A stretch of DNA of 64,000 nucleotides from Nannocystis bainbridge. Lineage in GTDB: Bacteria > Myxococcota_A > Polyangia > Nannocystales > Nannocystaceae. The notes beneath the pieces are model-generated. The model did no database searches, was not told the DNA's origin, and saw only the letters and a list, made by a program, of their open reading frames with translations. Within the stretch, counting starts at the first letter, position 1; every line of letters starts with the position of its first letter. Position numbers and translations under genes: made by a program. Shown here piece by piece: positions 10,059 through 62,276 of the stretch. The stretch is taken from positions 3,392,001 through 3,456,000 of the forward strand of contig NZ_JAQNDL010000001.1 in the NCBI RefSeq assembly GCF_028368995.1. The letters are read 5' to 3'.

Positions 10059-10114
10059 GACATGTCCGAACGAACATGTCCCTTAGGACATGAACATGTC
10101 CCTGAGGACATGTA
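10059..10114. repeat. GACATGTC 14-bp-period array
   Basis: CATG cores at 10061, 10075, 10089, then 10095 and 10109. Confidence 0.85.
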
Positions 10115-10134
10115 CTTTACGCCACTTTCCGCCC

Positions 10135-10941
10135 TCACCCCCGCGGCGCGCCGACCAGCCACGTCACGCGCATCGGGCTGCGGCCGAGCGGCTCCGACTC
10201 GATCTGCCACGCGTAGTCCTCCGCTCCGGGCACCGTCGCCAGCAGCTCGCGCAGCTCGTCGGGCGAGTACACCCGCAGGCACGACACCACCCCGTCCCAC
10301 GTCGCCACGAACGGGATCGCCGGCACCAGCCACGTCCACGCCAGCCGCGACAGGCGGAGCGGGCGGATGAACGGCGACGTCGCCAGCACCCCGAGGCTCG
10401 TCACCATGCACGTGGCGATCGACGCCGGGTATCTGCCGACGCCCTCGAACGCCGCGATCCCGCGCCGCTGCGCCACCGCGTCGGCGAGGATCGCCCGCGC
10501 CTGCGCCGGCCGGAAGTGATGGAAGGCGTTGCACAGCACGCGGAACCCGGCGAGCTCGGCCGGGACCGCCGTCGCGTCGACCGGGCGCGGCTCGTGCACG
10601 ATCCGCCCCGGCACCGTCGAGGCCGCTGCGAGCATCGCCTCCGCGTTCGGGAACAGGTCGGTGAGGCGCACGCGCACTGGCACCCCGCGGCGGTCGAGCT
10701 CGCTGATCAATGTCGGCAGCGGCCCTGCCGAGCCCGAGCACAGGTCGAGCAGCTCGCGCTCCCCGGTGCTGCGCAGCGCGGCCGCGAGGGCGTCGCAGAA
10801 GCCCTGGTACGGCCGCGGATCGAGGTTGCCGATGAAGTTGAGGTAGCCCGTCACGCCGTCGCGGATCGCCCGCGGCAGCCACGGCTGATCCTCGATCTCG
10901 AACCCGTGTCGTCGTCGACCCAGCACGCCCTGTCCCGTCAT
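10135..10941 (-). CDS. Class I SAM-dependent methyltransferase-like protein
   Basis: FEIEDQPWLP, LLDLCSGSAGP, LTDLFPN, PVDAT, NAFHHF, WDGVVSCLRVY. Confidence 0.8.
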   Translation of the reverse strand: MTGQGVLGRRRHGFEIEDQPWLPRAIRDGVTGYLNFIGNLDPRPYQGFCDALAAALRSTGERELLDLCSGSAGPLPTLISELDRRGVPVRVRLTDLFPNAEAMLAAASTVPGRIVHEPRPVDATAVPAELAGFRVLCNAFHHFRPAQARAILADAVAQRRGIAAFEGVGRYPASIATCMVTSLGVLATSPFIRPLRLSRLAWTWLVPAIPFVATWDGVVSCLRVYSPDELRELLATVPGAEDYAWQIESEPLGRSPMRVTWLVGAPRG

Positions 10942-11243
10942 CGCCGTCTCCTCGCTGGCGAAATTTAGACCGTCTCGCGGGCGCCGCGGGTTCGTCGCTG
11001 CGATCTGTCTTTGAGGACAGCCCTTTACCTTTGCTCCGCCTCCGACCCCAGGTCTCGGACCCGCTCGCTGCAGAATTCGGGCGCTATCGCGCCGGTTTCA
11101 CCTGACCGGGGGCGCGCGGCCTCGCGGCTCGAGATTGCCCGTCCGCCAACGCACGACAAGTCGGCCTTCCGCGAGGACGCGCGGTTGTGTAGCGTGCGGT
11201 CAGGGTCGCACGCTGCGCCCGGAAATTTCCCTGCGGAGACAAC

Positions 11244-11939
11244 ATGACCATGCGTACGCTTACTTCCTTCTCCCTGATGTCGGTCCTCGCGCTTGGCCTC
11301 GCGGCCTGCGGTGATGATGGCAAGCCGAACCTGACGACCGCCACCACGGCGACCACGCCCGGCACCACCAACACCACCAACACGACCAACAACAACACGA
11401 CCGACAGCACGGACACCGACGCCACGGCGACCGAGACCGACGGCACCGAGACCGACGGCACCGCGAGCGAGAGCACCGCGACCGAGACCGCCTCGAGCAC
11501 GCCGACGACGACCGAGGAGCCGGTCACCACGACCGAGACCAGCGTCACCTCCGAGACCACCGTCGAGCCGGAGACCACCACCTCGACCACCGTCGAGCCG
11601 GAGACGACCACCACCGAAGGCACCACCGACGACACCACCGGCGGCGGCGGCGGCGAGTACCAGGCTTGCGGCGCGATGGGCGAGTGCCCGGCGGGTTCGG
11701 ACTGCCTCGAGCTGATGGGCATCGAGGGCAGCTTCTGCTCGCCGATGTGCGACGGCATGGCGTGCCCGCCGACCGGCGCCGACGCGCAGGGCCAGTGCGT
11801 GCTGAGCATGGGCATGGGCGACCCGACCTACTGCGCGGCCCTCTGCCCGCCCGGTGACGCCGACGCCTGCCCCGAAGGCACGACCTGCAAGGAAGTCCCG
11901 GACCAGCCGATGCCGATCGGCATCTGCACCGCGCCCTGA
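11244..11939 (+). CDS. Lipoprotein with Thr-rich stalk and Cys-rich C-terminal domain
   Basis: RBS GGAG, lipobox LAAC, long Thr repeats, 12 C-terminal Cys. Confidence 0.85.
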   Translation: MTMRTLTSFSLMSVLALGLAACGDDGKPNLTTATTATTPGTTNTTNTTNNNTTDSTDTDATATETDGTETDGTASESTATETASSTPTTTEEPVTTTETSVTSETTVEPETTTSTTVEPETTTTEGTTDDTTGGGGGEYQACGAMGECPAGSDCLELMGIEGSFCSPMCDGMACPPTGADAQGQCVLSMGMGDPTYCAALCPPGDADACPEGTTCKEVPDQPMPIGICTAP

Positions 11940-11947
11940 GTGCGCAC

Positions 11948-12114
11948 GGTCGCCCCGCGCGACCACGCCCGCTTGCGCGAGGCCACGAGTTCGCATAGCT
12001 TCGTGGCCTCGGAGTCGGCCCATGCGTGTCTCTCCACATACACGAGCCTGAGTTCCGGATCGCTTCGGCGGTCCGGTCCCGTGTGTGTGCATTGAGTCCG
12101 CAAAGAGCCACTCA
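11948..12114 (+). promoter_or_regulatory. Candidate structured RNA leader upstream of rbfA-like/rtcB
   Basis: Hairpin 11978-12011; stem 12035-12044/12080-12089 enclosing CCGGATCGC-TTCG-GCGGTCCGG (12055-12076); TGAGT/ACTCA pairing that reaches the start codon. Confidence 0.45.
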
Positions 12115-12566
12115 TGAATCGTCACCGAGACCGCCGGCGCCGTCGCGCGCCGGCCACAACTGAATATTCGCAGTCTCCTCATTCGCTCCCGGGCGACGTG
12201 GACCCCGCCGTGTTGTTCGGCGCGGCCCTCCCGTCGCAGGCGCGACGCAAGCTCGACCAGCTGTCGCGGCAGGTCGAGGAGCGCCTCTCGCTGGTGCTCG
12301 CCGGCGAGATCGACGACCCGCACGTCGCGGCGCTGACCCTGCTCGGCGTCGAGCCCGAGCCCGGCAGCGGCAACCTGGTCGTCGTCCTGGCCCTGCCGGT
12401 CGGCGCCGGCGGCGACGAGGCGCAGGTCGTGATGCGCCGCCTCGACGCCCTGCGCGCCTACCTACGCGCCGAGATCGCCGGCGCCATCCACCGCAAGCGC
12501 ACCCCGAACCTGGTGTTCCGGCTGGTGCCTTCGCCGCTCGCCCGCGACGAGGAGGTGGAGCCATGA
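12114..12566 (+). CDS. Ribosome-binding factor A (RbfA)-like paralog
   Basis: QVEERLSLVLAGEIDDP...V.PEPG...LRAEIAGAIHRKRTPNLVF, an RbfA/KH-type pattern. Confidence 0.75.
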   Translation: MNRHRDRRRRRAPATTEYSQSPHSLPGDVDPAVLFGAALPSQARRKLDQLSRQVEERLSLVLAGEIDDPHVAALTLLGVEPEPGSGNLVVVLALPVGAGGDEAQVVMRRLDALRAYLRAEIAGAIHRKRTPNLVFRLVPSPLARDEEVEP

Positions 12567-13726
12567 CGGCGAACTCCACCGTCGCAAACGGCGAGGGCGC
12601 CGCGCCGGCGAGCCTCACCCGCTTCGTCGCCGAGCCGCCGCCGCGCGCCGTCACCGACGCGCTCGAACGCCTGCGTCACCTCGGCGACGTCGCCCGCATC
12701 GCCGTCATGCCCGACGTGCACCTCGCCGAGGGCGTGTGCGTCGGCACCGTCGTCGCCACCCGCACCCTGCTGTTGCCCGCGGCCGTCGGCGGCGACATCG
12801 GCTGCGGCATGGCGGCCGTCGCCTGCGACGTCGAGGCCAGCGCGCTGGACGACGCCCACACCGCCGCCGCCGTCCTGGTCGGCCTCCAGCGCGCGATCCC
12901 GGCGCTGCGCCACCCGGGCGGCCAGCACCCGCTGCCGCCCGCGCTGGCCGGGCGCCCGCTGTCCGCCCCGTCGCTGCGCTCCGAGCAGCGGCGCACGGCC
13001 GGCCTGCAGCTCGGCACGCTCGGTCGCGGCAACCACTTCCTCGAGCTGCAGGCCGACGAAGACGACCGGCTGTGGTTGATGGTGCACAGCGGCTCGCGCG
13101 GGATGGGCACGGCGATCCGCGACCACCACGACGCGCTCGCCAGCCCGGTCGGCGCCGGCCTGCGTGGGCTCGTCGCTGCCAGCCCCGAGGGCGCGGCCTA
13201 CCTGGGCGACATGCAGTGGGCCCTCGACTACGCCGAGGCCAACCGGGCCGCCCTGGCCGCTCGCGCCGCCGAGGTCTTGGGGACATGTCTCAAAGCGCAT
13301 GTCCTCATGGACACGTGGATCTCCTGCCACCACAACTTCGTCCGCCGCGAGCCGCTGGGCGACGAATCGCTATGGGTCCACCGCAAGGGGGCCGTGTCGG
13401 CGCGGGCAGACGAGCCGGGCATCGTGCCCGGCTCGATGGGCGCGCCGAGCTACCACACGTGCGGCCGCGGCGAGGTCGCGGGCCTGTGCTCGAGCGCGCA
13501 CGGGGCCGGGCGCGCGATGAGCCGCGGTGAAGCGCGCCGACACATCCGCGCCGGTGACGTCGTGGCCCAGATGCGCGGCGTATGGTTCGACCACCGGGCC
13601 GCCGACGCCCTCCGCGACGAGGCGCCGGCGGCCTACAAGGACATCGGCGCGGTCATGCGAGCCCAGCGCGCCCTGACCCGCGTGGTCCGCCGATTGCGGC
13701 CGCTGCTGAGCTTCAAGGCCGCGTAA
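12563..13726 (+). CDS. rtcB: RtcB-family RNA ligase
   Basis: MPDVH, VGGDIGCG, LGTLGRGNHFLE, HSGSRG, HHN, HRKGA, PGSMG, SSAHGAGR, DEAPAAYKDI; ATGA overlap with the rbfA-like gene. Confidence 0.93.
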   Translation: MTANSTVANGEGAAPASLTRFVAEPPPRAVTDALERLRHLGDVARIAVMPDVHLAEGVCVGTVVATRTLLLPAAVGGDIGCGMAAVACDVEASALDDAHTAAAVLVGLQRAIPALRHPGGQHPLPPALAGRPLSAPSLRSEQRRTAGLQLGTLGRGNHFLELQADEDDRLWLMVHSGSRGMGTAIRDHHDALASPVGAGLRGLVAASPEGAAYLGDMQWALDYAEANRAALAARAAEVLGTCLKAHVLMDTWISCHHNFVRREPLGDESLWVHRKGAVSARADEPGIVPGSMGAPSYHTCGRGEVAGLCSSAHGAGRAMSRGEARRHIRAGDVVAQMRGVWFDHRAADALRDEAPAAYKDIGAVMRAQRALTRVVRRLRPLLSFKAA

Positions 13727-25492: not shown

Positions 25493-25580
25493 TGGCTCGA
25501 AGCACATGGTCGATGCGACATGCCCCGAAGGGCATGCCCCAAAGCACATGCTTGAAAGAGCATGTCCTCTCGGACCTGTC
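25491..25580. repeat. GACATGTC 14-bp-period array
   Basis: CATG at 25505, 25519, 25533, 25547 and 25561; degenerate units at 25491 and 25575. Confidence 0.9.
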
Positions 25581-25616
25581 CATCCCCTCGCTCCCCGCGC
25601 GCCCGGAGGTGACCCG

Positions 25617-26480
25617 GTGATCCGCCCCGCCCCGCTGCTCGCCGCCCTCGTCGCCCTCGCGCCCGCCGTCGCGAGCGCCTACTCGTCGCCCGCGCTGTAC
25701 ACCGCCGACCCCGCGCGCACGGGAGGCGCGGGCGGACGGATCTTCAGCGGCAGCCCCGGCGACGGCTTCACCTGCGGGGTCTGCCACACCGGCGGCCCGC
25801 TGCCGACCCCGGAGATCCGCGGCGGCCCGAACGGCGCTTACAAACCTGGCGCGACGTACATGTTCGAAGTGACATGGCCCGAAGACGTGTTCGGGATCGT
25901 GCTCGAGGCGACCGACCCGGCCGGGGCCCCGCTCGGCACCCTGCGCCTGCCGCCGGCCGACATCCTCGAGGACGACGAGCTGTGCCCGGGCGGGCGCGCG
26001 GCCGAGTGGATCGAGTTCGCCGAGGGCGAAGCGCGCCAGGCGGTCGCGGTCAACGTGTGCGGCTCGCACCGCCTGCGCGTGCAGTGGACCGCCCCCGACA
26101 CCCACCTGCCCGGGGCGATCTACATGGCCGCGGTCGCGGCCGACGATGACGGCACCCCGGCCGGCGACGGCGCGGGCTTCTGGGAGTTCCCGGTCGGCCC
26201 CCCCGCCGCGACCGGCTGCAACCTCGGCGGCGCGCCGCCGTGGTGGGCCCTGCTGCTGCTGACCCGCCGGCGTCGCCGCGCCGCCGCGCTGCTCGGCGTG
26301 CTGTCTCTCGGGGCAGGTTGCGCCCGCGTCCAGCCCTACGAGCGCGGCCGCCTGGCCCAGCCCGACATGCAGCTCAACGGCGACGGTGACCTCGACGCCG
26401 GCCCCGAACACGCCCTCGACTACCGCGAAGGCTCGGCCGGCGGCCTCGGCGGCGGCGGCGGAGGTTGCGGATGCAACTGA
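25617..26480 (+). CDS. Secreted CXXCH/Reeler-like domain plus MYXO-CTERM-like segment plus DUF4266 fusion
   Basis: GTG start with GGAGGT RBS; signal peptide; GSPGDGFTCGVCH, VQWTAP; GCNLGG..WWALLLLTRRRRR; C-terminal VQPYERGRLA...REGSAGG.GGGGGGCGCN. Confidence 0.75.
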   Translation: MIRPAPLLAALVALAPAVASAYSSPALYTADPARTGGAGGRIFSGSPGDGFTCGVCHTGGPLPTPEIRGGPNGAYKPGATYMFEVTWPEDVFGIVLEATDPAGAPLGTLRLPPADILEDDELCPGGRAAEWIEFAEGEARQAVAVNVCGSHRLRVQWTAPDTHLPGAIYMAAVAADDDGTPAGDGAGFWEFPVGPPAATGCNLGGAPPWWALLLLTRRRRRAAALLGVLSLGAGCARVQPYERGRLAQPDMQLNGDGDLDAGPEHALDYREGSAGGLGGGGGGCGCN

Positions 26481-27891: not shown

Positions 27892-28140
27892 TCGCTGTCC
27901 GATCAGACATGTCCTAAAAGACATTGTATCCTGCCGCCCGCGGCGCCCCGCTGCGGCGCGCCGTTTCGAGCGACGATCCCCGGCGGTCGCCGCGTAACCA
28001 ACGTGGCAGCAATGTGGGCACAGGTATTGCCTGCACGCCTGCGCTGCGGCCCGGTCCGCTGGCGCCGACGCCCCCGCGGCCGATCTTGCCCGCCCCCGCG
28101 CTCGCAAGCGCGTCGGGGACATGTCCCGAAGGACATATCG
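27892..28140. repeat. Two short GACATGTC arrays upstream of SBP56
   Basis: Cores at 27908/27922 and 28120/28134, each pair 14 bp apart. Confidence 0.7.
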
Positions 28141-35521: not shown

Positions 35522-35613
35522 GCGCGGAGCCTCGACACCCTGCCCCCTGCTCAGTCCCCCGCAGGATTCGACCATCGTCTTCGGGTCCATCCACACATGT
35601 CCTCGAGGCCATC

Positions 35614-35907
35614 TCACGTCTCGTGCACCCGTCGCCGGCGCTCCCACCATTCGGGCCACGGCAGCAGCACCACCGGCACCAGCGCGATCATCGGGCGGAA
35701 ATCGATGTGCAGCACCCGATCGATCCCGACGTGCATCCCCACCAGCCCCAGCGCCAGCCACGGTCGCAGGCGCGGCAGCGGCACCAGCCGCACCGTCGCC
35801 AGCTCGAGCACCAGCGCCGTCGTCGCCAGCACAGCAGCCACGCGCAGTCCGGTCGCAAACAGCGCCGACTCGCGCGCGAACAGCCCCGCCCAGAACCTGC
35901 CCAGCAC
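35614..35907 (-). pseudogene. Membrane-protein fragment (HTTM-like C-terminus)
   Basis: LELA...PRLRPWL..GL.GMH.GI...L.IDF pattern; in-frame TAG just upstream at 35925-35923. Confidence 0.35.
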
Positions 35908-36477: not shown

Positions 36478-36482
36478 ATCTC

Positions 36483-36548
36483 CGCCTGTCCCCAGGGGCA
36501 TGCCCCGTAGGGCATGCTCCTTCGGACATGCTCCTTCGAGCATGTCCC
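36483..36548. repeat. GACATGTC 14-bp-period array between convergent genes
   Basis: CCTG at 36485, CATG at 36499, 36513, 36527 and 36541. Confidence 0.9.
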
Positions 36549-37955: not shown

Positions 37956-38336
37956 ATGACCCGCGCCGCCCGCCCGTTCTCCGCCCTGCTGTCCGTCCTG
38001 CTCCTTTCGGCCGCGGCCGGGTGCACCAGCCAGAGCAACATCGGCAACCCGTGCGACAAGGCCGAGCAGTGCGGCGACGGCCTGATCTGCGACTTCCACG
38101 ACGGCAAGGGCACCTGCCAGGAGCCGCACGGCCACGGCACCGATGGCGAGACCGCCGACACCGCCGACACCGACGACCACTCGCACGAGACCGACGATCA
38201 CTCGCACGAGACCGACGACCACTCGACGGACAGCACGAGCTCCGGCACCGGCCCGACCGAGGCCACCACCGAGCACGGCGAGACCGAGCACGACCACACC
38301 GGCACGACCGCCGACACCACGACCTCGACCGGTTGA
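37956..38336 (+). CDS. His/Asp-rich lipoprotein
   Basis: Lipobox AAGC; small Cys domain; repeats DDHSHET. Confidence 0.75.
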   Translation: MTRAARPFSALLSVLLLSAAAGCTSQSNIGNPCDKAEQCGDGLICDFHDGKGTCQEPHGHGTDGETADTADTDDHSHETDDHSHETDDHSTDSTSSGTGPTEATTEHGETEHDHTGTTADTTTSTG

Positions 38337-38385
38337 TCTTGCCCTGAAGGACATGTCCTCAAAGACATGTCCTTCAGCTCATGCT
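38336..38385. repeat. GACATGTC 14-bp-period array
   Basis: CTTG at 38338, CATG at 38352, 38366 and 38380. Confidence 0.85.
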
Positions 38386-38531
38386 GATCCTCGCGCCCGG
38401 CGTTCCGGTGCCGCCAGAGCGGCGCGACCCGACGGTGCGCGACCCGTCCTGCCGCCGCAGTCGCATCTGCCATGCGCCGGGGCTCGCGCGAAGATCGCGG
38501 CGGTCACCGATCCACGGTATGCTGCGGATCC

Positions 38532-39347: not shown

Positions 39348-39364
39348 GCGGCGCCTCACCTCGC

Positions 39365-39444
39365 GCCATGTCTACACGGACATGTCGTGGGGGACATGCC
39401 GCCGTGAACATGTCGCCGGGGACATGCCCCGAAGGACATGTCCC
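39365..39444. repeat. GACATGTC 14-bp-period array (six intact CATG cores)
   Basis: CATG at 39367, 39381, 39395, 39409, 39423 and 39437. Confidence 0.92.
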
Positions 39445-39461
39445 CATGGCAAGGCCCGCGC

Positions 39462-47293: not shown

Positions 47294-47328
47294 CATATGT
47301 CCCTTCAGACATGTCCATGAGGACATTC
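47294..47328. repeat. GACATGTC 14-bp-period array
   Basis: Units at 47296, 47310 and 47324. Confidence 0.7.
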
Positions 47329-48150: not shown

Positions 48151-50400
48151 ATGAACGATCACGCCTCGGACGACCGCAGCGGCCTCCTCGCTGCCACGCG
48201 CTACAGCTTCACCTGCAAGGGCACCCAGGGCGTCGTCTGGCACGTCCGCCGCTTCGACCTCGTCGAATCGATGTCCGAGCCCTACCGCCTCCACCTCGAG
48301 ATCCTCACCGACGACCTGTCCGTCGATCCGGGCGACCTCCTCGGGGCCGAGTGCGACTTCTTCATCGAGCGCGACGTCGCCGCCCGGGCCGTCTACGGCG
48401 TCGTCGCCCGCATGCAGGAGCTCGGCGTCGTCACCGACCGCCTCGTCCTCGGTATCGACCTCGTGCCCGCGCTCGCCTTGCTCGGCCAGGTCGTCAACAC
48501 CCGCTTCTTTCAGGAGCAGAACGTCCCCGACATCCTGCGCCAGGTGTTGGAGCCCGGGCTCGAGCTCGAGGGTCGGCGGCTGCGCCTCGACCTCGACGCC
48601 GCCGCTTACGAGCCGCGCGAGTACTGCGTCCAGTTCCGCGAGACCGACCTCGAGTTCGCCGCGCGGCTCATGCAGGAGGAGGGCATCCTCTACTACTTCG
48701 AGCACCCGGTGAACGGCGGCCCCGAGGTCCTCGTGCTCGCCGGCGGCAGCGACCGTTGCAAGCCGCTGCCGCTCGAGGGTGGGCGCGAGCAGATCGACTA
48801 CCTCGCGCGGCAGACCGGCACCGCCCTGCGTCAGTCGATCGACAGCCTGACCCCGACCTGGTCGCTGCGGACCACCTCGATCGTCCAGCGCGACTTCGAC
48901 TGGCTGCACCCCAGCGACTCGCCGTACCAGCGCGAGCGGCGATCGAAGGACCCTCGCGGCCGCGACCGCGAGGTCTACGACCACGACGAGCTGCGGCTCC
49001 ACCGCGACGACGGCGTCAAGCGGGCCAAGCGCAAGCTCGAGCAGCAGTCGGCCCAGACCCGCGTGTACCTCGGGACAGGCGACGTCACCGAGCTCGCGCC
49101 CGGCCACACCTTCACCCTCCTGGGTCACCCGCAGCCGCAGCTCGACCGCGAGTACCTGCTCGTGCGCGTGCGCCACCGCGGCGCCGCGCCCGAGGAGGAC
49201 ATGTACGCCAGCGCCCGCGGCGAGACCCGCTACGACAACGAGTTCGAGGCCATCCCCGCCGACGTGCCGTGGCGGCCCGAGCCCACCCTCACCCGTCCGC
49301 GCGCTCATGGGCCGCAGACCGCGATCGTCGTCGGCCCTGCCGGCGAAGAGGTGCACACCGACGAGCACGGGCGCATCAAGGTCCATTTTCACTGGGACCG
49401 GATCTCCCCCTTCGACGACACTGCCTCTTGCTGGATCCGCGTCGCCCAGAAGTGGGCCGGTCCATCGTGGGGCGCCGTCTTCATCCCGCGCGTCGGCATG
49501 GAGGTCCTCGTCGAATTCCTCGACGGCGACCCCGACCGCCCCGTCGTCACCGGTTGCGTCTACAACGGCCAGAACCGGCCGCCTTACGACCTGCCGCAGG
49601 AGAAGACCAAGAGCACGATGAAGTCCGACTCCAGCCCTGGCGGCGGTGGTTCGAACGAGATCCGCTTCGAGGACGCGGCCGGGGCCGAGGAGATCTTCAT
49701 CCACGGTCAGCTCGACATGAACACCGACGTCATCCGCGACACCACGCGCAAGAGCGGTCGCGACGACTCGAGCAACGTCGGTCGCCACCAGAAGGACGCC
49801 GTCGGGGTCAACCGCACCGCCAGCGTCGGCAACAACGAGACCATGACCGTCGGCGTCGACCAGTCGCTCACTGTCGGCAACAACCAGACGATCAGCGTCG
49901 GCGTCAACCAGAGCCTCACTGTCGGCTCGATGCAGAACGAGACTGTCGGCGCCAACCAGACGATCAGCGTCGGCGCCAACCAGAGCTCGACCATCGGCGC
50001 CAATCAGTCGACCACCGTCGGCGCCAGCATGACCCTCAGCGTCGGCGGCTCGATGAGCGTGACCGGCGGCGGCAGCAGCACCACCGGCATCGGCGGCAGC
50101 AGCAGCACCACGATCGGCGGCAACGACACCACCAGCGTCGGCGGCAGCAGCACCACCAACGTCGGCGGCGCCACCACGATGACCTTCTCCACCGCCCACG
50201 ACCTCAACGTCGGCGCCGCGCGGACCACCAACATCGGCGGCGGCGACACCCTCAACGTCACCGGCGCGCTGAAGATCACCGCCGCCTCGATCACGCTCTC
50301 GGCCGGCGGCTCGACCATCGACATCGGCCCGGGCGGTGTCACGATCTCCGCCGGCGCGATCGTCTCGATCACCGGCGCCATGGTCAATGTCAACACTTAG
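48151..50400 (+). CDS. vgrG: Type VI secretion spike protein VgrG
   Basis: ESMSEPY, R.FQ...VP.I, REYCVQFRETD..F..RL..EEGI.YYF, GPQTA.VVGP.GEE..TDEHGRIKV.FHWDR, SCWIRVAQ.WAG..WG..FIPRVGMEV, Gp5 C-terminal repeats. Confidence 0.96.
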   Translation: MNDHASDDRSGLLAATRYSFTCKGTQGVVWHVRRFDLVESMSEPYRLHLEILTDDLSVDPGDLLGAECDFFIERDVAARAVYGVVARMQELGVVTDRLVLGIDLVPALALLGQVVNTRFFQEQNVPDILRQVLEPGLELEGRRLRLDLDAAAYEPREYCVQFRETDLEFAARLMQEEGILYYFEHPVNGGPEVLVLAGGSDRCKPLPLEGGREQIDYLARQTGTALRQSIDSLTPTWSLRTTSIVQRDFDWLHPSDSPYQRERRSKDPRGRDREVYDHDELRLHRDDGVKRAKRKLEQQSAQTRVYLGTGDVTELAPGHTFTLLGHPQPQLDREYLLVRVRHRGAAPEEDMYASARGETRYDNEFEAIPADVPWRPEPTLTRPRAHGPQTAIVVGPAGEEVHTDEHGRIKVHFHWDRISPFDDTASCWIRVAQKWAGPSWGAVFIPRVGMEVLVEFLDGDPDRPVVTGCVYNGQNRPPYDLPQEKTKSTMKSDSSPGGGGSNEIRFEDAAGAEEIFIHGQLDMNTDVIRDTTRKSGRDDSSNVGRHQKDAVGVNRTASVGNNETMTVGVDQSLTVGNNQTISVGVNQSLTVGSMQNETVGANQTISVGANQSSTIGANQSTTVGASMTLSVGGSMSVTGGGSSTTGIGGSSSTTIGGNDTTSVGGSSTTNVGGATTMTFSTAHDLNVGAARTTNIGGGDTLNVTGALKITAASITLSAGGSTIDIGPGGVTISAGAIVSITGAMVNVNT

Positions 50401-51870: not shown

Positions 51871-53019
51871 ATGGCTTGGGCGAAGCGATTGTCGTTGTGT
51901 CTCGGTGCTCTCTCGGCGTGCGATCCGCAGCAAGGCGGGACCTCGGCGTCGGCCGGCGAGACCACGACCTCCACCGACGCATCCACGACGAGCGGCACGG
52001 ACGCCTCGACCGCCGGCACCGAGGCGACGACCGAGGCCACGCCCACCACCGGCGAGCCGGGCGAGCCGCTCGGCTGCGCCGACGTGCGCTGGGCCTACGA
52101 CGTGGCCAAGTTCCAGGCCATCAGCGACCTGGCCGTCGACTCGCGCGGGCACGTGCGCGCCACCCTGAGCGGCGCCGAGGTGTTTCGCGTGCTCGACCTC
52201 GACACCGGCGGCGTCGAGGTCGGCGCGTTCGAGGTCTCGAGCGTCGACGCTTTCGTCCGCTGGGGCGGGCTCGACGGCGACGACAACGTGGTGCTGCAGG
52301 TGCAAGAGGACGGCCCGCAGTGGCCCCGCGACTGGGTCCGCAAGTTCTCGCTGGACGGCGCGCTGCTGTGGGAGGTCGAGTTCGCGGCGAAGAGCGACGG
52401 GTTCCCGGTCGGCCGTCCGGCGCCCGGCCCCGATGGTTCGGTGCTGGTCTCGCGCTCGGGCTCCCTTCACAAGTTCGCCGCCGACGGCTCGCCGGTGTGG
52501 GAGCAGGCCAACCTCGACGGTCTGCAGCCCTTCGCGGTCAACGCGGCCGGCGTCAGCGTCGCATGGTTGCTGGCGACCAAGATCGTGCGCGTGCTCGATC
52601 CCGCCGGCATCCCGCTGTGGCAGGCCGAATGGGGCCAGGAGGGGCTGGCCGATCGCTTCATCGTGCTCGACGGCGCCGGCGACGTCGTCGTCGGCGAGCA
52701 GCACCACGGCCTGGCGCGGTTCAGCGGCGACGGCGCGCTCGCGTGGGAGAAGACCGAGGCCGAGCTCGGGCTGCGGATCGACGGGCTGGTGATGAACGAG
52801 GCCGGGCAGCTGGCCGTGCTCGGCCTCCCGGACACCGGCCCGCAGGTGGTCGTGTCCTTCGGCCCCGACGGCGCCGAGGTCGGCCGCCGCGCTTGCACCC
52901 AGCTCTCCCACGTCGGAGAGCTGGCGATCGACGCCGCGGGCCGGGTGACGATCGCCGGCTACGACTTCATCGCCGAGAACGGCCAGTTCGACTGGTGGAT
53001 CGTCGCGTTCGACGGTTGA
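51871..53019 (+). CDS. Beta-propeller lipoprotein
   Basis: Lipobox LSAC; Thr-rich stalk; KF..DG..LW repeats. Confidence 0.8.
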   Translation: MAWAKRLSLCLGALSACDPQQGGTSASAGETTTSTDASTTSGTDASTAGTEATTEATPTTGEPGEPLGCADVRWAYDVAKFQAISDLAVDSRGHVRATLSGAEVFRVLDLDTGGVEVGAFEVSSVDAFVRWGGLDGDDNVVLQVQEDGPQWPRDWVRKFSLDGALLWEVEFAAKSDGFPVGRPAPGPDGSVLVSRSGSLHKFAADGSPVWEQANLDGLQPFAVNAAGVSVAWLLATKIVRVLDPAGIPLWQAEWGQEGLADRFIVLDGAGDVVVGEQHHGLARFSGDGALAWEKTEAELGLRIDGLVMNEAGQLAVLGLPDTGPQVVVSFGPDGAEVGRRACTQLSHVGELAIDAAGRVTIAGYDFIAENGQFDWWIVAFDG

Positions 53020-53029
53020 TGTGTTCTCA

Positions 53030-53144
53030 AAAACATGTCCATTCGGACATGTCATAAAGAACACGTCACCACGGACAGAGCCCGGAGACATGTCTCTTCG
53101 GGCATAGCCCGCTCGGCCCGTCACATGTCCCTTCGGACATGTGC
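53030..53144. repeat. GACATGTC 14-bp-period array between convergent genes
   Basis: Units at 53034, 53048, 53062, 53076, 53089, 53103, 53124 and 53138. Confidence 0.88.
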
Positions 53145-53196: not shown

Positions 53197-54252
53197 TCAG
53201 GACAGGTTCGAAGCCGCCTGCAGCGTGCTCAGCAGTTCGCGCCAGGCGGTCAGCTCGGGGCGGCCGGGTTTGCGCTCGCCGAACAGCAGGGCGATGTTGT
53301 CGCCCGCGGCGTCGAACAGCTCGAGCGAGGTGACGACGCCGTCGTCGGTCGGCTTGTCGACGACAAAGGCGCTGGCGACCAGGTCGCGGCGGAGGTGGAG
53401 GTTGAAGCCCGGGTCGAGCACGTTGATCCACGGGCCCATCGGCACGATCTTGCGCACGGGGCCGGTGTGGATCTGGATGCACCCGGGGCTGCCGACGAAG
53501 ATCATGATCGGCAGCTCGCTGGCGGCCGCGCTGTTCAGGACCGCCTCGATGCTGTCCGTGGCGACCGGGCGGACGAAGCCCTCGGGCGCGAGGCGCATCG
53601 CCTGCAGGCGCGCCACCCCGGACTTGCGCAGCAGGCCGAAGAACTCGTGGGTGTCGCGCAGGCCCCGCCAACCGGCCTGAAACGCCGCGACGTCGACCTC
53701 GGCGTCGGGCGTCTCGGCCTTGCGGGGCGGCCGCGGGGTCAGGCGGATCGTCGGCTCCTGGTGCTCCGCGCGGAAGATGTCGACGAGCTGGCGGTACTCG
53801 GCCAGCTCGGTCTTCTCCTTGGCGTAGATCTTGTGGACCGCGTCGCCGTGGGCGTCGAAGAAATGCAGGCTCTGCTTGCCGTCCTCGTCGACCGCGAACC
53901 CGTGGGCCCACTGCGACAGGAAGATCCGCAGATCGATCGGCCCGTCGCCGTGCACGATCCCGTGCGGGCCCGAGATCTCCGGCTCGGTGTACTCGCCGGT
54001 CTTCTCGTGCACGGCGCTCTCGTTGCGGGTGAGCGCCATGACCTCGCCGAGCAGCGGCAGCCGGCGCAAGATGGCCGGCCAGTCGTCGATGAGGCGCACG
54101 GTGGTGGTGCCGCACTCGGTCGCGCGCAGCTCGGCCTCGCTGACGCCGAGGCGGGTGGCGGCGTCGCGGATCCGCAGCTTCGGCTCGCTGGCGCGGAGGT
54201 CACGCCAGGCGTGGGCGAGGTTGTTCGAGGGGGTCGGGGTGGCAGGTTGCAT
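53197..54252 (-). CDS. hemS: Hemin-degrading/transport protein HemS/ChuS
   Basis: RIRDAA..LGVSEAEL, MALTRNESAVHEKTG, IDLRIF, AVHKIY, DTHEFF, IMIFVG..GCIQIHTG, FNLHL, FGERKPG.PE...WR. Confidence 0.95.
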   Translation of the reverse strand: MQPATPTPSNNLAHAWRDLRASEPKLRIRDAATRLGVSEAELRATECGTTTVRLIDDWPAILRRLPLLGEVMALTRNESAVHEKTGEYTEPEISGPHGIVHGDGPIDLRIFLSQWAHGFAVDEDGKQSLHFFDAHGDAVHKIYAKEKTELAEYRQLVDIFRAEHQEPTIRLTPRPPRKAETPDAEVDVAAFQAGWRGLRDTHEFFGLLRKSGVARLQAMRLAPEGFVRPVATDSIEAVLNSAAASELPIMIFVGSPGCIQIHTGPVRKIVPMGPWINVLDPGFNLHLRRDLVASAFVVDKPTDDGVVTSLELFDAAGDNIALLFGERKPGRPELTAWRELLSTLQAASNLS

Positions 54253-57377: not shown

Positions 57378-57467
57378 CGGTGACGCCGACGGTGATGGGC
57401 CGCGACGCATCCGGCGCGCTGGCGGTGCTGTCGCGGGCGGAGTGGACGATCGCGCGCTGACCCACGG

Positions 57468-57546
57468 CGACATGGTCGATGCGACATGTCCCGTGAGCCA
57501 TACCAATCCCGGCGATGTCTTTACGACATGTCCCATGAGACATGCG
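57468..57546. repeat. GACATGTC 14-bp-period array
   Basis: Units at 57471, 57485, 57499, 57527 and 57541; 57470-57488 is identical to 25504-25522. Confidence 0.88.
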
Positions 57547-57580
57547 TCGCGTCGCTCGCGACGGCCCCTGGCGCGGCTCG

Positions 57581-59319: not shown

Positions 59320-59351
59320 AAAGGGACATGTTTTTAAAAACATGTCCCTTT
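59320..59351. repeat. Perfect 32-bp palindrome built from two CATG units 14 bp apart
   Basis: AAAGGGACATGTTTTTAAAAACATGTCCCTTT; the second CATG supplies a likely start codon. Confidence 0.85.
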
Positions 59352-60292
59352 GTTTCACTGCAGCGGTCGCGCTGAGCGGCTGCGTGTCGCGGCCGGGCGA
59401 CTTCGGGGACAGCGCCACCGAGGCCGGTGACCCGACCGGCGACACCAGCGGCGCGGCGACCTCCGCACCGGGCACCTCGACCGTGACGAGCACCTCGACC
59501 GTGACGGGCGCGACGAATCCGGGCACGACCACCGGACCCGACGACGAGCCGGTCCCCAGCACCACTGACTTTCCGTCGAGCACCGGCCACGACTTCATCA
59601 TGCCGCTCGACGGCGGCGGCCTCGGCAACGAGTGCGATCCGTTCGCGCAGGACTGTCCCGTGGGCCAGAAGTGCATGCCCTACTCGGGCGACGGCGACCA
59701 CGCCTGGGAGAGCCTCAAGTGCGTCGAAGTCGTGTCCGACCCCGACGGGCTCTACGAGCCCTGCGAGGTGTTCGGCTCCCCGGTCAGCGGCGAGGACTCC
59801 TGCGACGTCGGCCAAATGTGCTGGGACGTGGAGGACGGCGTCGGCACCTGCGTCGGCCTGTGCACCGGCAGTCACGACGCTCCGACCTGCGCCGATCCGT
59901 CCTCGACCTGCCACCTCAGCTCCGACGGCGTGATCGCCCTGTGCCTGAAGCCCTGCGATCCGCTGCTGCAGGACTGTCCGGGCGGTGATCTGTGCATCCC
60001 CTCGCCCTCGAACCCCGGCACGTTCGTCTGCATCCTCGACGCCGGCGGCGAGGAGGGCCAGGCGCTCGACCCCTGCGAGTACGCCAACGTCTGCGACCCC
60101 GGCCTCTACTGCCTCGACCCGGCGCTGGGCGCCGAGTGCGACCCGCAAGTGATCGGCTGCTGCCTGCCGTTCTGCGACATAACGCTGCCGAACACCTGCC
60201 CCGGCGCGGGCCAGGAGTGCCTGCCGTGGTGGGGCGACGAACCGGCCCCGCCCGTGCACGCGAACCTCGGGGTCTGCAGCCTGCCCCAATGA
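59342..60292 (+). CDS. Cys-rich myxobacterial lipoprotein, paralog 1
   Basis: Lipobox LSGC; CDPFAQDCP.GQKCMPY, CDPLLQDC, GCCLPFCD, LGVC.LP. Confidence 0.88.
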   Translation: MSLCFTAAVALSGCVSRPGDFGDSATEAGDPTGDTSGAATSAPGTSTVTSTSTVTGATNPGTTTGPDDEPVPSTTDFPSSTGHDFIMPLDGGGLGNECDPFAQDCPVGQKCMPYSGDGDHAWESLKCVEVVSDPDGLYEPCEVFGSPVSGEDSCDVGQMCWDVEDGVGTCVGLCTGSHDAPTCADPSSTCHLSSDGVIALCLKPCDPLLQDCPGGDLCIPSPSNPGTFVCILDAGGEEGQALDPCEYANVCDPGLYCLDPALGAECDPQVIGCCLPFCDITLPNTCPGAGQECLPWWGDEPAPPVHANLGVCSLPQ

Positions 60293-60330
60293 CCATGCCC
60301 GTTCCGACATGTCCTATGAGACATCCAAAC

Positions 60331-61269
60331 ATGCAACTCCGCGTCCTCCCGCTGCTGCTCGTCACCGCCTGCTCCCCGCGCCCGCTCGGCGACACCGAGA
60401 CCAGCGCCGGCGGGACCACCACCACCGGCTCCGGGACGACCGCCAGCACCGCCTCGCCGCCCAGCCCGACCACGGGCACCGCCGATCCGCCGCCCGGGAC
60501 GACCGGCGGGCCCGACACGGCGGAGACCCTCACGGACGGCTCGACCGCCCCGCCGGACAGCTCCGGCAGCGAATTCATCGCACCGCCCGACGGCGGCCCG
60601 TCGACCAAGGAGTGCTATCAATGGGCGCAGGACTGTCCCGAGGGCCAGAAGTGCATGCCCTACTCGGGCGACGGCGACAACGCGTGGGAGAGCCTCAAGT
60701 GCGTCGATGTCGTGCCCGACCCCGACGGGCTCTACGAGCCCTGCGAGGTGTTCGGCTCCCCGGTCAGCGGCGAGGACACCTGCGACGTCGGCCTGATGTG
60801 CTGGGACGTGGTCGACGGCAAGGGCAAATGCATGGGCATGTGCACCGGCAGCCCCGACAAGCCGGGCTGCACCGACCCGGAGGCGTCTTGCTACCTCACC
60901 GCCGACGCCGTGGTCACCCTGTGCTTCCCGCACTGCGATCCGCTGCAGCAGGACTGCGAGGCCGACGAACTGTGCCTCCCTCTACCCTCGGGCGATGCTT
61001 TCATCTGCGTCTCCGACGCCAGCGGCGAGGGGGGCCAGACGTTCGACCCCTGCACTTACATCAGCGCCTGCGACGCCGGCCTCCTGTGCCTCAACCCGGA
61101 GCTGGCCGTCGAGTGCGACCCGCAGCAGATCGGCTGCTGCCTCCCGTTCTGCGACACCTCGCTGCCGAACACCTGCCCCGGCGCGGGCCAGGAGTGCCTG
61201 TCATGGTGGGACAACGCACCGCCCTCGCCGGAGCTCGCCAACCTCGGGGTCTGCAGCCTGCCCCAGTGA
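60331..61269 (+). CDS. Cys-rich myxobacterial lipoprotein, paralog 2
   Basis: Lipobox VTAC; same Cys pattern and long identical DNA stretches shared with paralog 1. Confidence 0.88.
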   Translation: MQLRVLPLLLVTACSPRPLGDTETSAGGTTTTGSGTTASTASPPSPTTGTADPPPGTTGGPDTAETLTDGSTAPPDSSGSEFIAPPDGGPSTKECYQWAQDCPEGQKCMPYSGDGDNAWESLKCVDVVPDPDGLYEPCEVFGSPVSGEDTCDVGLMCWDVVDGKGKCMGMCTGSPDKPGCTDPEASCYLTADAVVTLCFPHCDPLQQDCEADELCLPLPSGDAFICVSDASGEGGQTFDPCTYISACDAGLLCLNPELAVECDPQQIGCCLPFCDTSLPNTCPGAGQECLSWWDNAPPSPELANLGVCSLPQ

Positions 61270-61318
61270 CCATCTCTTCTTAAAAAGAGAGACGACATGT
61301 CCCACGAGACATGTCTTC

Positions 61319-61385
61319 ATGTCACTCCGCGCCCTCCCGCTGCTCCTCGTCCAAGCCTGCTCGCAGCGCTTGGGCGGCGACTTCC
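61319..61385 (+). pseudogene. Truncated third paralog (signal peptide only)
   Basis: MSLRALPLLLVQACSQRLGGD matches MQLRVLPLLLVTACSPRPLGD, then similarity stops. Confidence 0.6.
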
Positions 61386-61499
61386 GGGTTCACCTGATCG
61401 GGGTCCACCTCGACGATCGATCCGCCCTGCGAAGGTCCGTGAGCGTCACGGGCCGAACGCATGCCCCCAAAGGACATGTCGCAGCGAGAGACCGCTGCG

Positions 61500-62276
61500 T
61501 CAGCCGCGGCGCTTCGCCGGCTTCGCAGCGGCCGTCTTCGCCCCCGCTGCCTTGTTCGCGCCGGCTTGCTTCTTCGCCCCCGCCGCCTTCTTCGCGCCCG
61601 CTTGCTTCTTCGCGCTTGCCGCCTTCTCCGCGCCGGCTTGCTTCTTCGCCCCCGCCGCCTTTGCGCCCACTGCCTTTGTGCGCGCCGCCTTCTTCGCGCT
61701 CGCTTGCTTCTTCGCCCCCGCCGCCTCTGTGCCCACCTCCTTTGTGCGCGCTGCCTTCTTCGCCCCGGCGGCCTTCTTCGCCCCGGCGGCCTTCTTCGCC
61801 CCGGCGGCCTTCTTCGCCCCCGTCACCTTCGCGTTCCCAGCACCTGCCCCTTCGGGCATGCCCTTACGACCAGGTCCCTTCGCACCTGTCCCCGCAGACA
61901 TGCCCCTCGGGCCACCCGGCTCCATCGCCCCCGAGAGCTTCTTCGGCGCCACCGCCCGATAGCTCTCCGCCAGCCACTCCGCCAGCAGCCCGATCGGCAG
62001 CGCCTCGGCGACCGAGAAGCTCGCTGTCACCCAGCCGCTCTTGCCGAGCCCGTAGCCGGTCGGCGACGCGAACGGCAGCAGCAGCGCCGCCCCGTGCGAC
62101 GCCGGCAGCTTGACCGACAGGGTCAGCGTCCCCGCCTCGCCGCCCATGAACAGGAACGCCTTGCCGCGGACCTTCACCGCCGTGTGGCCCCACGGGAACT
62201 CCTCGACCGCCTCGGGATAGGCGAGGGCCAGCGCCCGCACCTGCTCTGCTCCGGCTCCGATCGCCTGCTTCGTCAT
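61500..62276 (-). CDS. MmcQ/YjbR-family protein with Lys/Ala-rich histone-like tail
   Basis: ALAYPEA.EEFPWG...KVRGK.F, KL, PTGYGLGKSGWV, ESYR.VAPKKL; tail of AGAKK repeats. Confidence 0.88.
   Translation of the reverse strand: MTKQAIGAGAEQVRALALAYPEAVEEFPWGHTAVKVRGKAFLFMGGEAGTLTLSVKLPASHGAALLLPFASPTGYGLGKSGWVTASFSVAEALPIGLLAEWLAESYRAVAPKKLSGAMEPGGPRGMSAGTGAKGPGRKGMPEGAGAGNAKVTGAKKAAGAKKAAGAKKAAGAKKAARTKEVGTEAAGAKKQASAKKAARTKAVGAKAAGAKKQAGAEKAASAKKQAGAKKAAGAKKQAGANKAAGAKTAAAKPAKRRG

What the first reader, a model, noticed from the sequence alone, without database searches (positions are those of the whole stretch)
10059..61915. Dispersed family of 14-bp-period arrays of the palindrome GACATGTC
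Seen: about 20 short arrays of (GACATGTC-like octamer + 6 variable nt) with CATG cores exactly 14 bp apart. Examples are 39367/81/95/39409/23/37, 25505/19/33/47/61, 36499/36513/27/41, 38352/66/80, 10061/75/89, 53034/48/62/76, 57471/85/99/57527/41, 47296/47310/24, 59327/41, 60294/60308/22, 61296/61310, 27908/22, 28120/34 and 35596/35610. Spacers differ between units while phase is kept, even across degenerate units. Arrays sit between convergent genes, between tandem genes and over start codons, so they are not promoter-specific. Inference: conserved core and spacing with free spacers fits cooperative binding of a dimeric protein along the chromosome (nucleoid organiser, parS/matS-like marker or methylation-linked site) better than slippage or a REP/MITE. 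I know of no described element with this grammar.
Basis: seen in the sequence. Interest (0 to 1): 0.85.

Follow-up and report, generated by a model that had tools for sequence, protein, structure and literature searches.

The report
Phased dyad-repeat arrays at gene ends
A group of soil myxobacteria (Nannocystis) has written thousands of copies of one small mirror-image DNA word, often stacked exactly 14 bases apart, mostly just after genes but also into coding sequence by base changes, and no described repeat family fits this.

Summary
CATG-CATG spacings of 14/28/42 bp number 3736/2073/1586, against about 100-300 at other spacings.

The true unit is a 14-bp dyad, TGYCC-N4-GGRCA. It is strictly N4: 2828 copies, against 93 with N3 and 54 with N5. 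Head-to-tail abutment of modules creates the GGRCATGYCC palindrome and the 14-bp lattice. I count 2596 arrays covering 1.25% of the genome.

- **Position.** 48% of convergent, 17% of tandem and 8% of divergent intergenic regions hold an array. This is a REP-like, gene-3'-end profile.
- **Not a mobile REP.** No Y1/RAYT transposase was found in 6 of 6 array-rich genomes. There are no conserved flanks and almost no shared spacers.
- **Origin in place.** Arrays inside genes arise by substitution, not insertion.
- **Range.** The module is confined to one Nannocystaceae clade.

Best reading (0.4): stacked recognition sites of an unidentified clade-specific dimeric DNA-binding factor. They accrue in situ and are retained at gene ends, where they probably act as two-way barriers. 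Rivals are REP-like RNA hairpins, an uptake-signal-like drive and repair bias.

I rate it a new variant of a known kind.

The parts
39364..39457 (.). Seven-unit array filling the gap between convergent genes (my calls 38532-39347 + and 39462-41129 -). This is the flagship example.
   Evidence: As RNA it folds at -52.9 kcal/mol, z -3.1. The orthologous gap holds an array of 3-7 units with different spacers in all 6 large relatives.
36482..36547 (.). Five-unit array between convergent genes (35986-36477 + and 36565-37410 -). Its units 3 and 4 are exact reverse complements of each other.
25502..25581 (.). Six-unit array between tandem + genes. It starts 10 bp after the upstream stop and ends 36 bp before the next start.
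38335..38386 (.). Four-unit array starting at the stop of gene 37938-38336 (+), 146 bp before the next gene.
10058..10115 (.). Two overlapping short arrays (3 and 2 units, offset 34 bp, so out of phase by 6) between tandem minus-strand genes.
53017..53144 (.). Three short or degenerate arrays (5, 3 and 2 units) in one convergent gap (genes 51895-53019 + and 53197-54252 -).
57466..57549 (.). Array of six positions in phase. Four keep CATG and two middle units are degenerate.
60277..60328 (.). Four-unit array overlapping the stop of gene 59384-60292 (+) and ending 2 nt before the start of gene 60331-61269 (+).
59324..59347 (.). Two-unit array (one dyad module) in a tandem gap.
61293..61316 (.). 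Two-unit array in a convergent gap.
61840..61905 (.). Five-unit array (CCTG and CATG cores mixed) inside my ORF call 61500-62276 (-), next to an 18-bp coding tandem repeat.
13281..13318 (.). Three-unit array inside a called gene (12563-13726 +).
25856..25879 (.). Two-unit array inside a called gene (25617-26480 +).
28117..28140 (.). Two-unit array (GGACATGTCC cgaa GGACATATC) in a tandem gap.
27893..27926 (.). Degenerate three-unit array (CTGTCC gatc AGACATGTCC taaa AGACATTG).
   Evidence: read by eye
47294..47328 (.). Three-unit array with cores TATG, CATG and CATT.
   Evidence: read by eye
35594..35618 (.). Two-unit degenerate array (CACATGTCC tcga GGCCATCTC).
   Evidence: read by eye
3362..3385 (.).

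Best explanation
The arrays are stacks of one clade-specific 14-bp dyad site, TGYCC-N4-GGRCA. I read it as the recognition site of a still unidentified dimeric, sequence-specific DNA-binding factor.

In the core Nannocystis species the sites abut with zero gap. That creates the GGRCATGYCC junction palindrome and a 14-bp lattice: one dimer per 14 bp, three per four helical turns.

The sites are not spread by transposition. They are written in place by base substitution and grow or shrink by local slippage and inverted duplication. They persist where they do no harm or are useful. That means just downstream of genes, above all between convergent, well-adapted (high-GC3) genes, and in tolerant parts of proteins. 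They are nearly absent from promoter-only gaps.

At gene ends the bound, hairpin-capable arrays most likely act as two-way barriers to read-through transcription, working like REP/BIME elements.

**Shown:** unit, geometry, lattice, placement, origin in place, lack of mobility signatures, taxonomic range.
**Inferred:** the protein, its dimeric nature, the barrier function, and whether selection or a molecular drive maintains the sites.
For: **Geometry.** The N4 rule is absolute: 2828 copies against 93 (N3) and 54 (N5), with background about 45. Abutment is absolute too: GGRCA-N0-TGYCC occurs 1771 times, against 28-78 for N1-N3. The same strict N4 holds for the CCTGTCC variant: 413 against 1, 0 and 0. 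It also holds in a divergent relative: 21 against 0 and 0. There is no excess of 13, 15, 27 or 29 spacings genome-wide.

**Centre of the dyad.** The two middle loop positions are 41% G+C in a 71.5% G+C genome.

**Little RNA-type tolerance.** In tandem gaps, G-U on the sense transcript numbers 1130 against 992 A-C. Inside genes it is 543 against 532. No T-run follows the arrays.

**Origin in place.**
- In a Mur-ligase-like gene the array occupies a stretch with no indel against 20 orthologues. Array-poor members of the genus have ordinary codons there.
- Of 105 in-gene arrays spanned by an alignment to a paralogue, 37 show no length difference, 49 are within one residue, and only 6 look like insertions.
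- In-gene arrays are kept, at the same length, in all 6 large genomes.

**No mobility.** Y1_Tnp was found in 0 of 6 genomes. Flanks are not conserved. Shared runs of 4 or more spacers occur in only 26 array pairs.

**Placement.**
- Arrays occur in 688 of 1442 convergent, 723 of 4340 tandem and 113 of 1462 divergent gaps.
- In tandem gaps the median distance is 35 bp after the stop and 170 bp before the next start.
- Occupancy of convergent gaps rises from 18% to 72% across GC3 quartiles of the flanking genes.

**Range.** Exact modules number 1550-2090 in the large Nannocystis genomes and 114-959 in divergent members of the genus. Two sister genera hold 87-169, and the other genomes searched 0-20. 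The reversed-pattern control gives 0-10.
Against: - No protein was identified, and no binding, methylation or RNA-end data exist (one search found no usable RNA run).
- Neighbouring half-units covary in the Watson-Crick sense. The outer pair gives A:T 1112 against 938 expected and C:G 539 against 385. The inner pair gives C-G 146 against 86 expected. A plain homodimer site does not predict this. It points to hairpin or cruciform formation, at least as a mutational force.
- The placement profile and the absence of a U tract are just what E. coli REPs show (passages). So an RNA-level role could explain placement without any DNA-binding factor.
- Between genomes 94% identical, cores of short arrays diverge 8.2% (58 of 710), spacers 13% (24 of 184) and flanks 7% (70 of 1000). 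Constraint on cores is therefore modest.
- Long arrays turn over fast.
- In a divergent relative the modules are spaced 21 or 27 bp apart. The 14-bp lattice is therefore not essential to the module.
- Gene positions come from my own crude codon-usage gene finder.
Confidence: 0.4

Rival explanations
1. REP/BIME-like RNA elements. The arrays work mainly as transcribed 3'-UTR hairpins: two-way, U-tract-less terminators and blocks to exonucleases. Sequence uniformity would be a legacy of how they form, not of a DNA-binding factor.
For: - The placement profile matches E. coli REPs, which are about 60% convergent, 40% tandem and 1% divergent, with about 30% of convergent gaps occupied and no poly-U (passages). 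It also matches REPs generally (passages).
- Folding is strong: -52.9 kcal/mol, z -3.1.
- Watson-Crick covariation is present.
- There is a slight G-U excess on the sense strand: 1130 against 992, p=0.003.
- UUCG and its complement are among the top loops: 234 + 234 of 7231.
- Occupancy is higher beside high-GC3 genes. REP-flanked convergent genes in E. coli are likewise more highly expressed.
Against: - RNA hairpins tolerate 3-6-nt loops and G-U pairs. Here N3 and N5 are at background and G-U is about equal to A-C.
- The commonest loop, CTTC, is not a recognised stable tetraloop (recalled).
- About 28% of arrays (728 of 2596) lie in coding sequence and arose there by substitution. A 3'-UTR role does not explain that.
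- The arm sequence is conserved beyond what pairing needs.
Confidence: 0.22
2. Uptake-signal-like molecular drive. The dyad is preferred by a DNA-uptake or recombination receptor, as DUS and USS are. Fragments carrying it are over-transmitted, so sites accumulate wherever they are tolerated. Terminator positions are simply the most tolerant.
For: - Hallmarks of DUS/USS read in passages (bioRxiv 10.1101/2025.10.24.684340; PMC2397512): thousands of copies; both in genes and between them; in permissive parts of genes; about half in predicted terminators, often as inverted repeats; lineage 'dialects'; rare in recently acquired DNA.
- Matched here by origin in place in genes and the 3'-end bias.
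- Also matched by a clade-limited range with a CCTG versus CATG dialect shift: 99:50 and 78:32 in divergent members against 88:265 in a core species.
- Occupancy is low beside atypical genes, and long arrays turn over fast.
Against: - Known uptake sequences are asymmetric single words whose pairing or spacing does not matter for uptake (passage). Nothing known predicts a strict N4 dyad or a 14-bp lattice.
- Competence of Nannocystis is not documented in anything I read.
- Arrays are not visibly depleted in non-syntenic DNA between two relatives. 42 of 169 arrays lack anchors, and about 22% of the DNA is unaligned.
Confidence: 0.15
3. By-product of a sequence-specific repair or modification system. 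A clade-specific methyltransferase, nickase or very-short-patch-type repair would convert near-cognate sequence to the cognate dyad, with hairpin-templated correction making arms symmetric.
For: - Origin by substitution without indels.
- Watson-Crick but not G-U covariation, as DNA-templated correction would give.
- Clade limitation.
- HIP1 of cyanobacteria is a precedent: a hyperabundant palindrome tied to methyltransferases (abstracts only).
Against: - A conversion bias does not explain the 12-fold difference between convergent and divergent gaps unless selection is added.
- It does not explain zero-gap stacking.
- No candidate enzyme was sought or found.
- CATG overall is only mildly over-represented: 3.6 per kb against about 2.6 expected from base composition (my arithmetic).
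Confidence: 0.1
4. A miniature mobile element (REPIN/MITE-like) mobilised in trans by a transposase.
For: High copy number, lineage-specific expansion and presence/absence differences of long arrays between relatives.
Against: - No Y1/RAYT transposase in 6 of 6 genomes, while the control search rings in 6 of 14 reference genomes.
- No conserved ends or target duplications.
- Spacers are essentially unique to each array.
- In-gene arrays replace rather than add sequence: 6 of 105 look like insertions.
Confidence: 0.04

Closest known systems
REP / BIME elements of Enterobacteria and Pseudomonads (REPINs with RAYT transposases)
   Same: - Short G+C-rich palindromic units in hundreds to thousands of copies, often clustered into arrays (REP325 has 12 units).
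- They lie after genes, between tandem or convergent but hardly ever divergent genes. They lack poly-U and are proposed as two-way terminators or decay blocks. E. coli figures and roles come (passages) and general REP placement (passages).
- My counts: 827 convergent, 907 tandem and 132 divergent arrays.
   Different: - No RAYT in 6 of 6 genomes.
- No GTAG/CGTC-type tag or conserved flank.
- Loops differ from copy to copy.
- Units abut on an exact 14-bp lattice.
- 28% lie in coding sequence and arose there by substitution. E. coli REPs are all extragenic.
DNA uptake sequences (DUS of Neisseriaceae, USS of Pasteurellaceae)
   Same: Hyperabundant clade-specific words with dialects. They are found in genes at permissive places and, as inverted repeats, in terminators. 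They are created in place rather than by transposition (passages). See for the matching features here.
   Different: DUS and USS are asymmetric words of 10-12 or about 30 bp with no fixed pair geometry. Here the unit is a strict 5-4-5 dyad that stacks every 14 bp. No uptake evidence exists for this genus.
HIP1 (GCGATCGC) of cyanobacteria
   Same: A hyperabundant palindrome present within and between genes. It is conserved between genomes and its function is still debated (nucleoid structure, methylation, gene transfer). Source: abstract; listing.
   Different: HIP1 is a single octamer. It is not a split dyad, is not stacked in phase, and is not reported (in what I read) as biased to gene 3' ends.
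Tandem operator arrays of small dimeric repressors (omega heptads of pSM19035, MetJ met-boxes) and 5-4-5 FNR-type sites
   Same: Fixed half-site spacing and zero-gap stacking of sites for cooperative side-by-side binding. This grammar is recalled from memory, not from a call.
   Different: Those arrays number a few per replicon and sit in promoters. Here there are about 2600 arrays, and they avoid promoters.
Rickettsia palindromic elements and other in-gene REP-like palindromes
   Same: Palindromic repeats read through as peptide inside genes. Recalled; also earlier notes e1-794483 and e1-1520257, and (abstract passage: REPs inside genes).
   Different: Those are described as in-frame insertions. 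Here the paralogue and orthologue comparisons show replacement without a change in length.

Membership tests
REP/REPIN-RAYT | Short palindromic units in high copy number, mostly extragenic | tested here: met
   2596 arrays and 2828 exact modules; 72% lie outside my gene calls
REP/REPIN-RAYT | Located downstream of genes (tandem or convergent, not divergent) | tested here: met
   688 of 1442 convergent, 723 of 4340 tandem and 113 of 1462 divergent gaps are occupied
REP/REPIN-RAYT | Cognate RAYT (Y1/HUH transposase, PF01797) in the genome | tested here: not met
   0 of 6 array-rich genomes; the control search rings in 6 of 14 reference genomes. The assemblies are 80-91% complete by marker genes
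REP/REPIN-RAYT | Conserved tag (GTAG or CGTC) or flank next to the stem | tested here: not met
   Position logos of flanks show nothing conserved beyond the lattice
REP/REPIN-RAYT | Copies related by copying (shared loops and variable positions) | tested here: not met
   Shared runs of 4 spacers occur in 26 array pairs only; for runs of 2 the count is 3517 against 3358 expected
DNA uptake sequences | Clade-specific hyperabundant motif with dialects | tested here: met
DNA uptake sequences | Arises in place, including in permissive parts of genes | tested here: met
DNA uptake sequences | Increases DNA uptake through a specific receptor | not testable with these tools
   Needs transformation or uptake assays
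Intrinsic (Rho-independent) terminator | G+C-rich hairpin | tested here: met
Intrinsic (Rho-independent) terminator | U/T tract directly after the stem | tested here: not met
   2.32 T per 15 nt downstream against 2.47 upstream. The scan of 25000-44999 gives 3 sites against 3.4 expected, none at an array
parS/matS-type chromosome markers | Few sites concentrated in one macrodomain (origin or terminus) | tested here: not met
   Arrays lie on all 5 contigs at about 12 per 50 kb, with no change at the GC-skew switch on contig 3
MITE | Terminal inverted repeats, target-site duplication and a shared internal sequence | tested here: not met
Cooperative operator array of a dimeric DNA-binding protein | Fixed half-site spacing and fixed site-to-site period | tested here: met
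Cooperative operator array of a dimeric DNA-binding protein | An identified protein that binds in a spacing-dependent way | not testable with these tools
   No candidate found; needs pull-down, DAP-seq or ChIP

The most novel reading that the evidence does not exclude
A genus-wide protein-DNA lattice system. A clade-specific dimeric factor would coat zero-gap stacks of its 14-bp dyad site at the ends of most well-expressed genes. It would serve as a two-way roadblock terminator or insulator in a genome that lacks U-tract terminators. Pressure to carry these sites would be strong enough to rewrite coding sequence in place.
Probability: 0.22. Interest if true: 0.88.

Novelty: new variant of a known kind. 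Interest (0 to 1): 0.7.

Why it matters
- **An open question made testable.** Hyperabundant genomic palindromes (REP, DUS/USS, HIP1) are old puzzles. How they arise and what keeps them is still argued. This family combines REP-like placement with DUS-like origin in place, plus a geometry (strict 5-4-5 dyad, zero-gap 14-bp stacking) that almost demands a specific binding partner. That makes the question directly testable in culturable Nannocystis strains.
- **A possible mode of transcription termination.** The arrays occupy 48% of all convergent gaps. They occupy 72% of those beside the most codon-adapted genes. This hints at how a 71% G+C bacterium without U-tract terminators may end transcription.
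- **A striking evolutionary case.** A DNA-level signal has overwritten protein-coding sequence without changing its length.
- **Practical uses.** The motif is a genus marker. It is also a caution for gene callers and for assembly of these genomes rich in natural-product genes.

Tried and rejected
- **Rfam (gathering thresholds) on the window.** Nothing on any array; only a group II intron.
- **RNA evidence.** No RNA holder listed for window 36000-42000. Four soil runs hold 5-6% of the words, as contigs only, so I did not lay reads.
- **First covariation tests.** Tests on thresholded units were biased by the threshold. An unbiased test on units framed by strong units (735 quads) showed no pairing between the two middle units. 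Later tests on register-free pairs did show covariation.
- **Even/odd unit preference and position-specific loops in 6-unit arrays.** No position-specific loop signal.
- **Distant same-genus relative G009 as outgroup for the window's gaps.** Synteny was too poor; only one gene matched.
- **Histidine-kinase gene (P0002).** The array sits in a linker with many indels among 5 orthologues, so insertion against replacement cannot be told. The UppP-like gene (P0004) carries the array in an extra loop of about 70 residues and was not followed up.
- **Origin/terminus clustering.** None.
- **Earlier notes of this scan.** Nothing on this genome or its look-alikes. Word searches gave only other repeat systems.
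- **Literature.**
  - 'GGACATGTCC' found only eukaryote papers, mostly on p53 (15 of 47 hits listed).
  - Nannocystis with repeat and intergenic terms gave nothing relevant, as did Nannocystis with palindrom.
  - 'Repetitive extragenic palindromic' with myxobacteria also gave nothing relevant.
  - Subscription journals and supplements were not seen.
- **Not attempted.** I did not try to name the binding protein.

Full report
**1.

The window has 242 CATG. Pairs 14, 28 and 42 bp apart number 26, 11 and 9, against 0 at 13 and 2 at 15.

The other four are present with one degenerate core each. A position-weight definition finds 17 arrays in the window.

The window lies in an 11.05-Mb, 71.5% G+C assembly of 5 contigs. 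Genome-wide:
- Spacings 14/28/42/56/70 occur 3736/2073/1586/751/383 times.
- Spacings 13, 15, 27 and 29 stay at background (72, 262, 275 and 88). Background is about 100 off-frame and about 300 at multiples of three.
- For units with at least 8 of 10 matches, spacing 14 occurs 4396 times. Spacings 12, 13, 15 and 16 occur 170, 91, 120 and 43 times.

I define 2596 arrays of 2-13 units. They cover 137,578 bp, which is 1.25% of the genome.

**2. Anatomy**

The unit logo is GGRCATGYCC plus four variable bases (4108 units). The primary unit, however, is the spacer-centred dyad:
- TGYCC-N4-GGRCA occurs 2828 times, against 93 with N3 and 54 with N5 (background about 45).
- The 10-mer palindrome occurs 1771 times. 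Gaps of 1-3 bases between modules are at background, 28-78.
- The outer halves of terminal units are degenerate, so arrays begin and end at module borders.
- A second common variant is CCTGTCC-N4-GGACAGG: 413 copies with N4, and 1, 0 and 0 with N3, N5 and N6.

Loops are not random:
- The commonest are CTTC 288, CGAA 234, TTCG 234, GATC 192 and GAAG 190 of 7231.
- The two middle loop positions are 41% G+C.

Flanks carry no conserved sequence. Rfam has nothing for the arrays.

**3. Pairing**

Neighbouring half-units covary in the Watson-Crick sense:
- Fully complementary R/Y combinations are enriched 1.12-1.45-fold, and mismatched ones are depleted.
- At the first pair outside the fixed module, A:T is 1112 against 938 expected and C:G is 539 against 385.
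- At the inner pair, C-G is 146 against about 86 expected, while T-G is depleted.

G-U tolerance is weak. In tandem gaps, oriented by the upstream gene, G-U on the transcript numbers 1130 against 992 A-C (p=0.003). In genes it is 543 against 532.

The flagship array folds at -52.9 kcal/mol (z -3.1) as RNA. No T-run follows arrays. A terminator scan of 20 kb finds 3 sites against 3.4 expected, none at an array.

**4. Placement**

Gene positions come from my own crude codon-usage gene finder (8057 genes).
- Arrays fall in convergent gaps 827 times, tandem 907, divergent 132 and inside gene.
- By my arithmetic, that is 2.9, 0.95 and 0.25 arrays per kb of the three gap types.
- Gaps with at least one array: 688 of 1442 convergent, 723 of 4340 tandem and 113 of 1462 divergent.
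- In tandem gaps the median distance is 35 bp from the upstream stop and 170 bp to the next start.
- Occupancy of convergent gaps rises from 66 of 361 to 261 of 361 across quartiles of the flanking genes' GC3.
- Arrays lie on all contigs, about 12 per 50 kb and over-dispersed, with no change at the GC-skew switch.

**5. Not mobile, but made in place**

Evidence against mobility:
- No Y1/RAYT transposase domain was found in this genome or five array-rich relatives. The control search rings in 6 of 14 reference genomes.
- Runs of four shared spacers link only 26 array pairs (0.05 expected). Runs of two are at expectation.
- Neighbouring spacers are identical in 3.3% of cases against 1.25% expected. 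They are reverse-complementary at lag 2 in 3.9% against 1.2%. That points to local slippage and inverted duplication.

Evidence from arrays inside genes:
- Three in-gene arrays are conserved, at the same length, in all six large genomes.
- In a Mur-ligase-like gene the array lies in a stretch with no indel across 20 orthologues. Two array-poor members of the genus have ordinary codons there: GVPSRGPALHGEDLAARAVEVS against GVMSRGACLKEHDLEAMSVRTS.
- In an ACP-ligase fusion the array sits in a linker that 14 orthologues from other genera have at nearly the same length.
- A histidine-kinase linker was too variable to judge.

Systematic test against paralogues:
- There are 378 in-gene arrays of 3 or more units.
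- 105 of them are spanned by an alignment to a paralogue within the genome.
- The net length difference is 0 in 37 and within one residue in 49. Only 6 look like insertions.

**6. Turnover**

The orthologue of the gap at 39364 carries an array in all six large genomes, but with 3-7 units and different spacers.

I compared two relatives that are 94.3% identical over 373 kb:
- 87 arrays have both flanking anchors. 47 have the same length in both genomes.
- Among the 25 equal-length arrays anchored in one of the two genomes, cores differ at 58 of 710 positions, spacers at 24 of 184 and 20-nt flanks at 70 of 1000.
- The rest, mostly longer arrays, differ by unit gains and losses, duplications or wholesale replacement.

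**7. Range**

The double 10-mer pattern hits 78 loci among one genome for each of 185,579 species. 75 of these are labelled Nannocystis, Nannocystaceae or Myxococcales.

Exact TGTCC-N4-GGACA counts:

| Group | Count |
|---|---|
| This genome | 1987 |
| Five large relatives | 1550-2090 |
| Five divergent or fragmentary members of the genus | 114-959 |
| Two sister genera | 87-169 |
| One further genome | 20 |
| The remaining 44 genomes of the 61 searched | 0-8 |
| Reversed-pattern control | 0-10 |

The abutting (CATG) form is a feature of the core species: 417-778 copies there, against 2-57 in the divergent members. In divergent members the CCTG form leads, 99:50 and 78:32, against 88:265 in a core species. 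In one of them the modules repeat at 21- or 27-bp steps rather than 14.

**8. Reading**

These features argue for recognition on DNA by a dyad-symmetric factor, and against a purely RNA-structural element or a transposon:
- the absolute N4 rule and zero-gap stacking;
- the AT-enriched centre;
- weak G-U tolerance;
- origin by substitution in coding DNA.

These features argue that hairpin potential matters too, at least for where arrays are kept and how they mutate:
- the REP-like placement; E. coli REPs are about 60% convergent, 40% tandem and 1% divergent, occupy about 30% of convergent gaps, and lack poly-U (passages);
- the covariation between half-units;
- the tie to well-adapted genes.

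Origin in place, presence in genes, the terminator bias and the dialects parallel uptake sequences (passages).

I commit at 0.4 to stacked binding sites that accrue in place and act as two-way barriers at gene ends. The rivals are REP-like RNA hairpins (0.22), an uptake-like drive (0.15), a repair or methylation by-product (0.1) and a mobile element (0.04).

**9. Novelty**

I found no description of this family in the searches. Subscription journals and supplements were not seen.

It fails defining tests for REP/RAYT, MITEs, intrinsic terminators and parS/matS. It shares features with REP, DUS/USS and HIP1. I therefore rate it a new variant of a known kind, hyperabundant genomic palindromes, with an unusual and testable grammar.

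Noticed in passing
window 1909-2008 and 3725-3860, minus strand: Rfam hits to group II intron domains (RF00029 at 42 bits, RF02003 at 80.6 bits). A group II intron lies near the left end of the window, next to a 2-unit array at 3362-3385.
   Followed up: no
window 41724-42123; 49769-50259; 61531-61830: Long tandem repeats that look coding. Periods are 96 bp x 4.2, then 24/48/72 bp, then 18/36 bp x 17 (GCCTTCTTCGCGCCCGCT-like). They are unrelated to the 14-bp family.
   Followed up: no
L208:11330-11490 and L209:14184-14290 (divergent same-genus relative): Tandem repeats of whole CCTGTCC-cccg-GGACAGG hairpins at alternating 21- and 27-bp steps with identical loops. This is a different stacking mode of the same module.
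   Followed up: partly
L084 (orthologue of the gap at window 39348-39461 in one large relative): The gap is about 290 bp long. It holds a block of about 30 bp twice, about 130 bp apart, each copy carrying the same small array.
   Followed up: no
window 1-35900: The first 36 kb of the window has no match in the regions of two relatives that are syntenic with window 35962-64000. It still carries 7 of the 17 arrays called in the window.
   Followed up: no
G000:C1:83144-84172 (L144:245-1273): A UppP/BacA-like protein with an extra loop of about 70 residues, rich in Pro, Gly and His. The loop contains a 6-unit array.
   Followed up: partly
genome-wide: Within units framed by strong neighbours, the R and Y positions of one 10-mer are palindromic less often than expected: 0.285 against 0.386. 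Units tend to be GGACATGCCC or GGGCATGTCC, paired with the reverse complement next door.
   Followed up: partly
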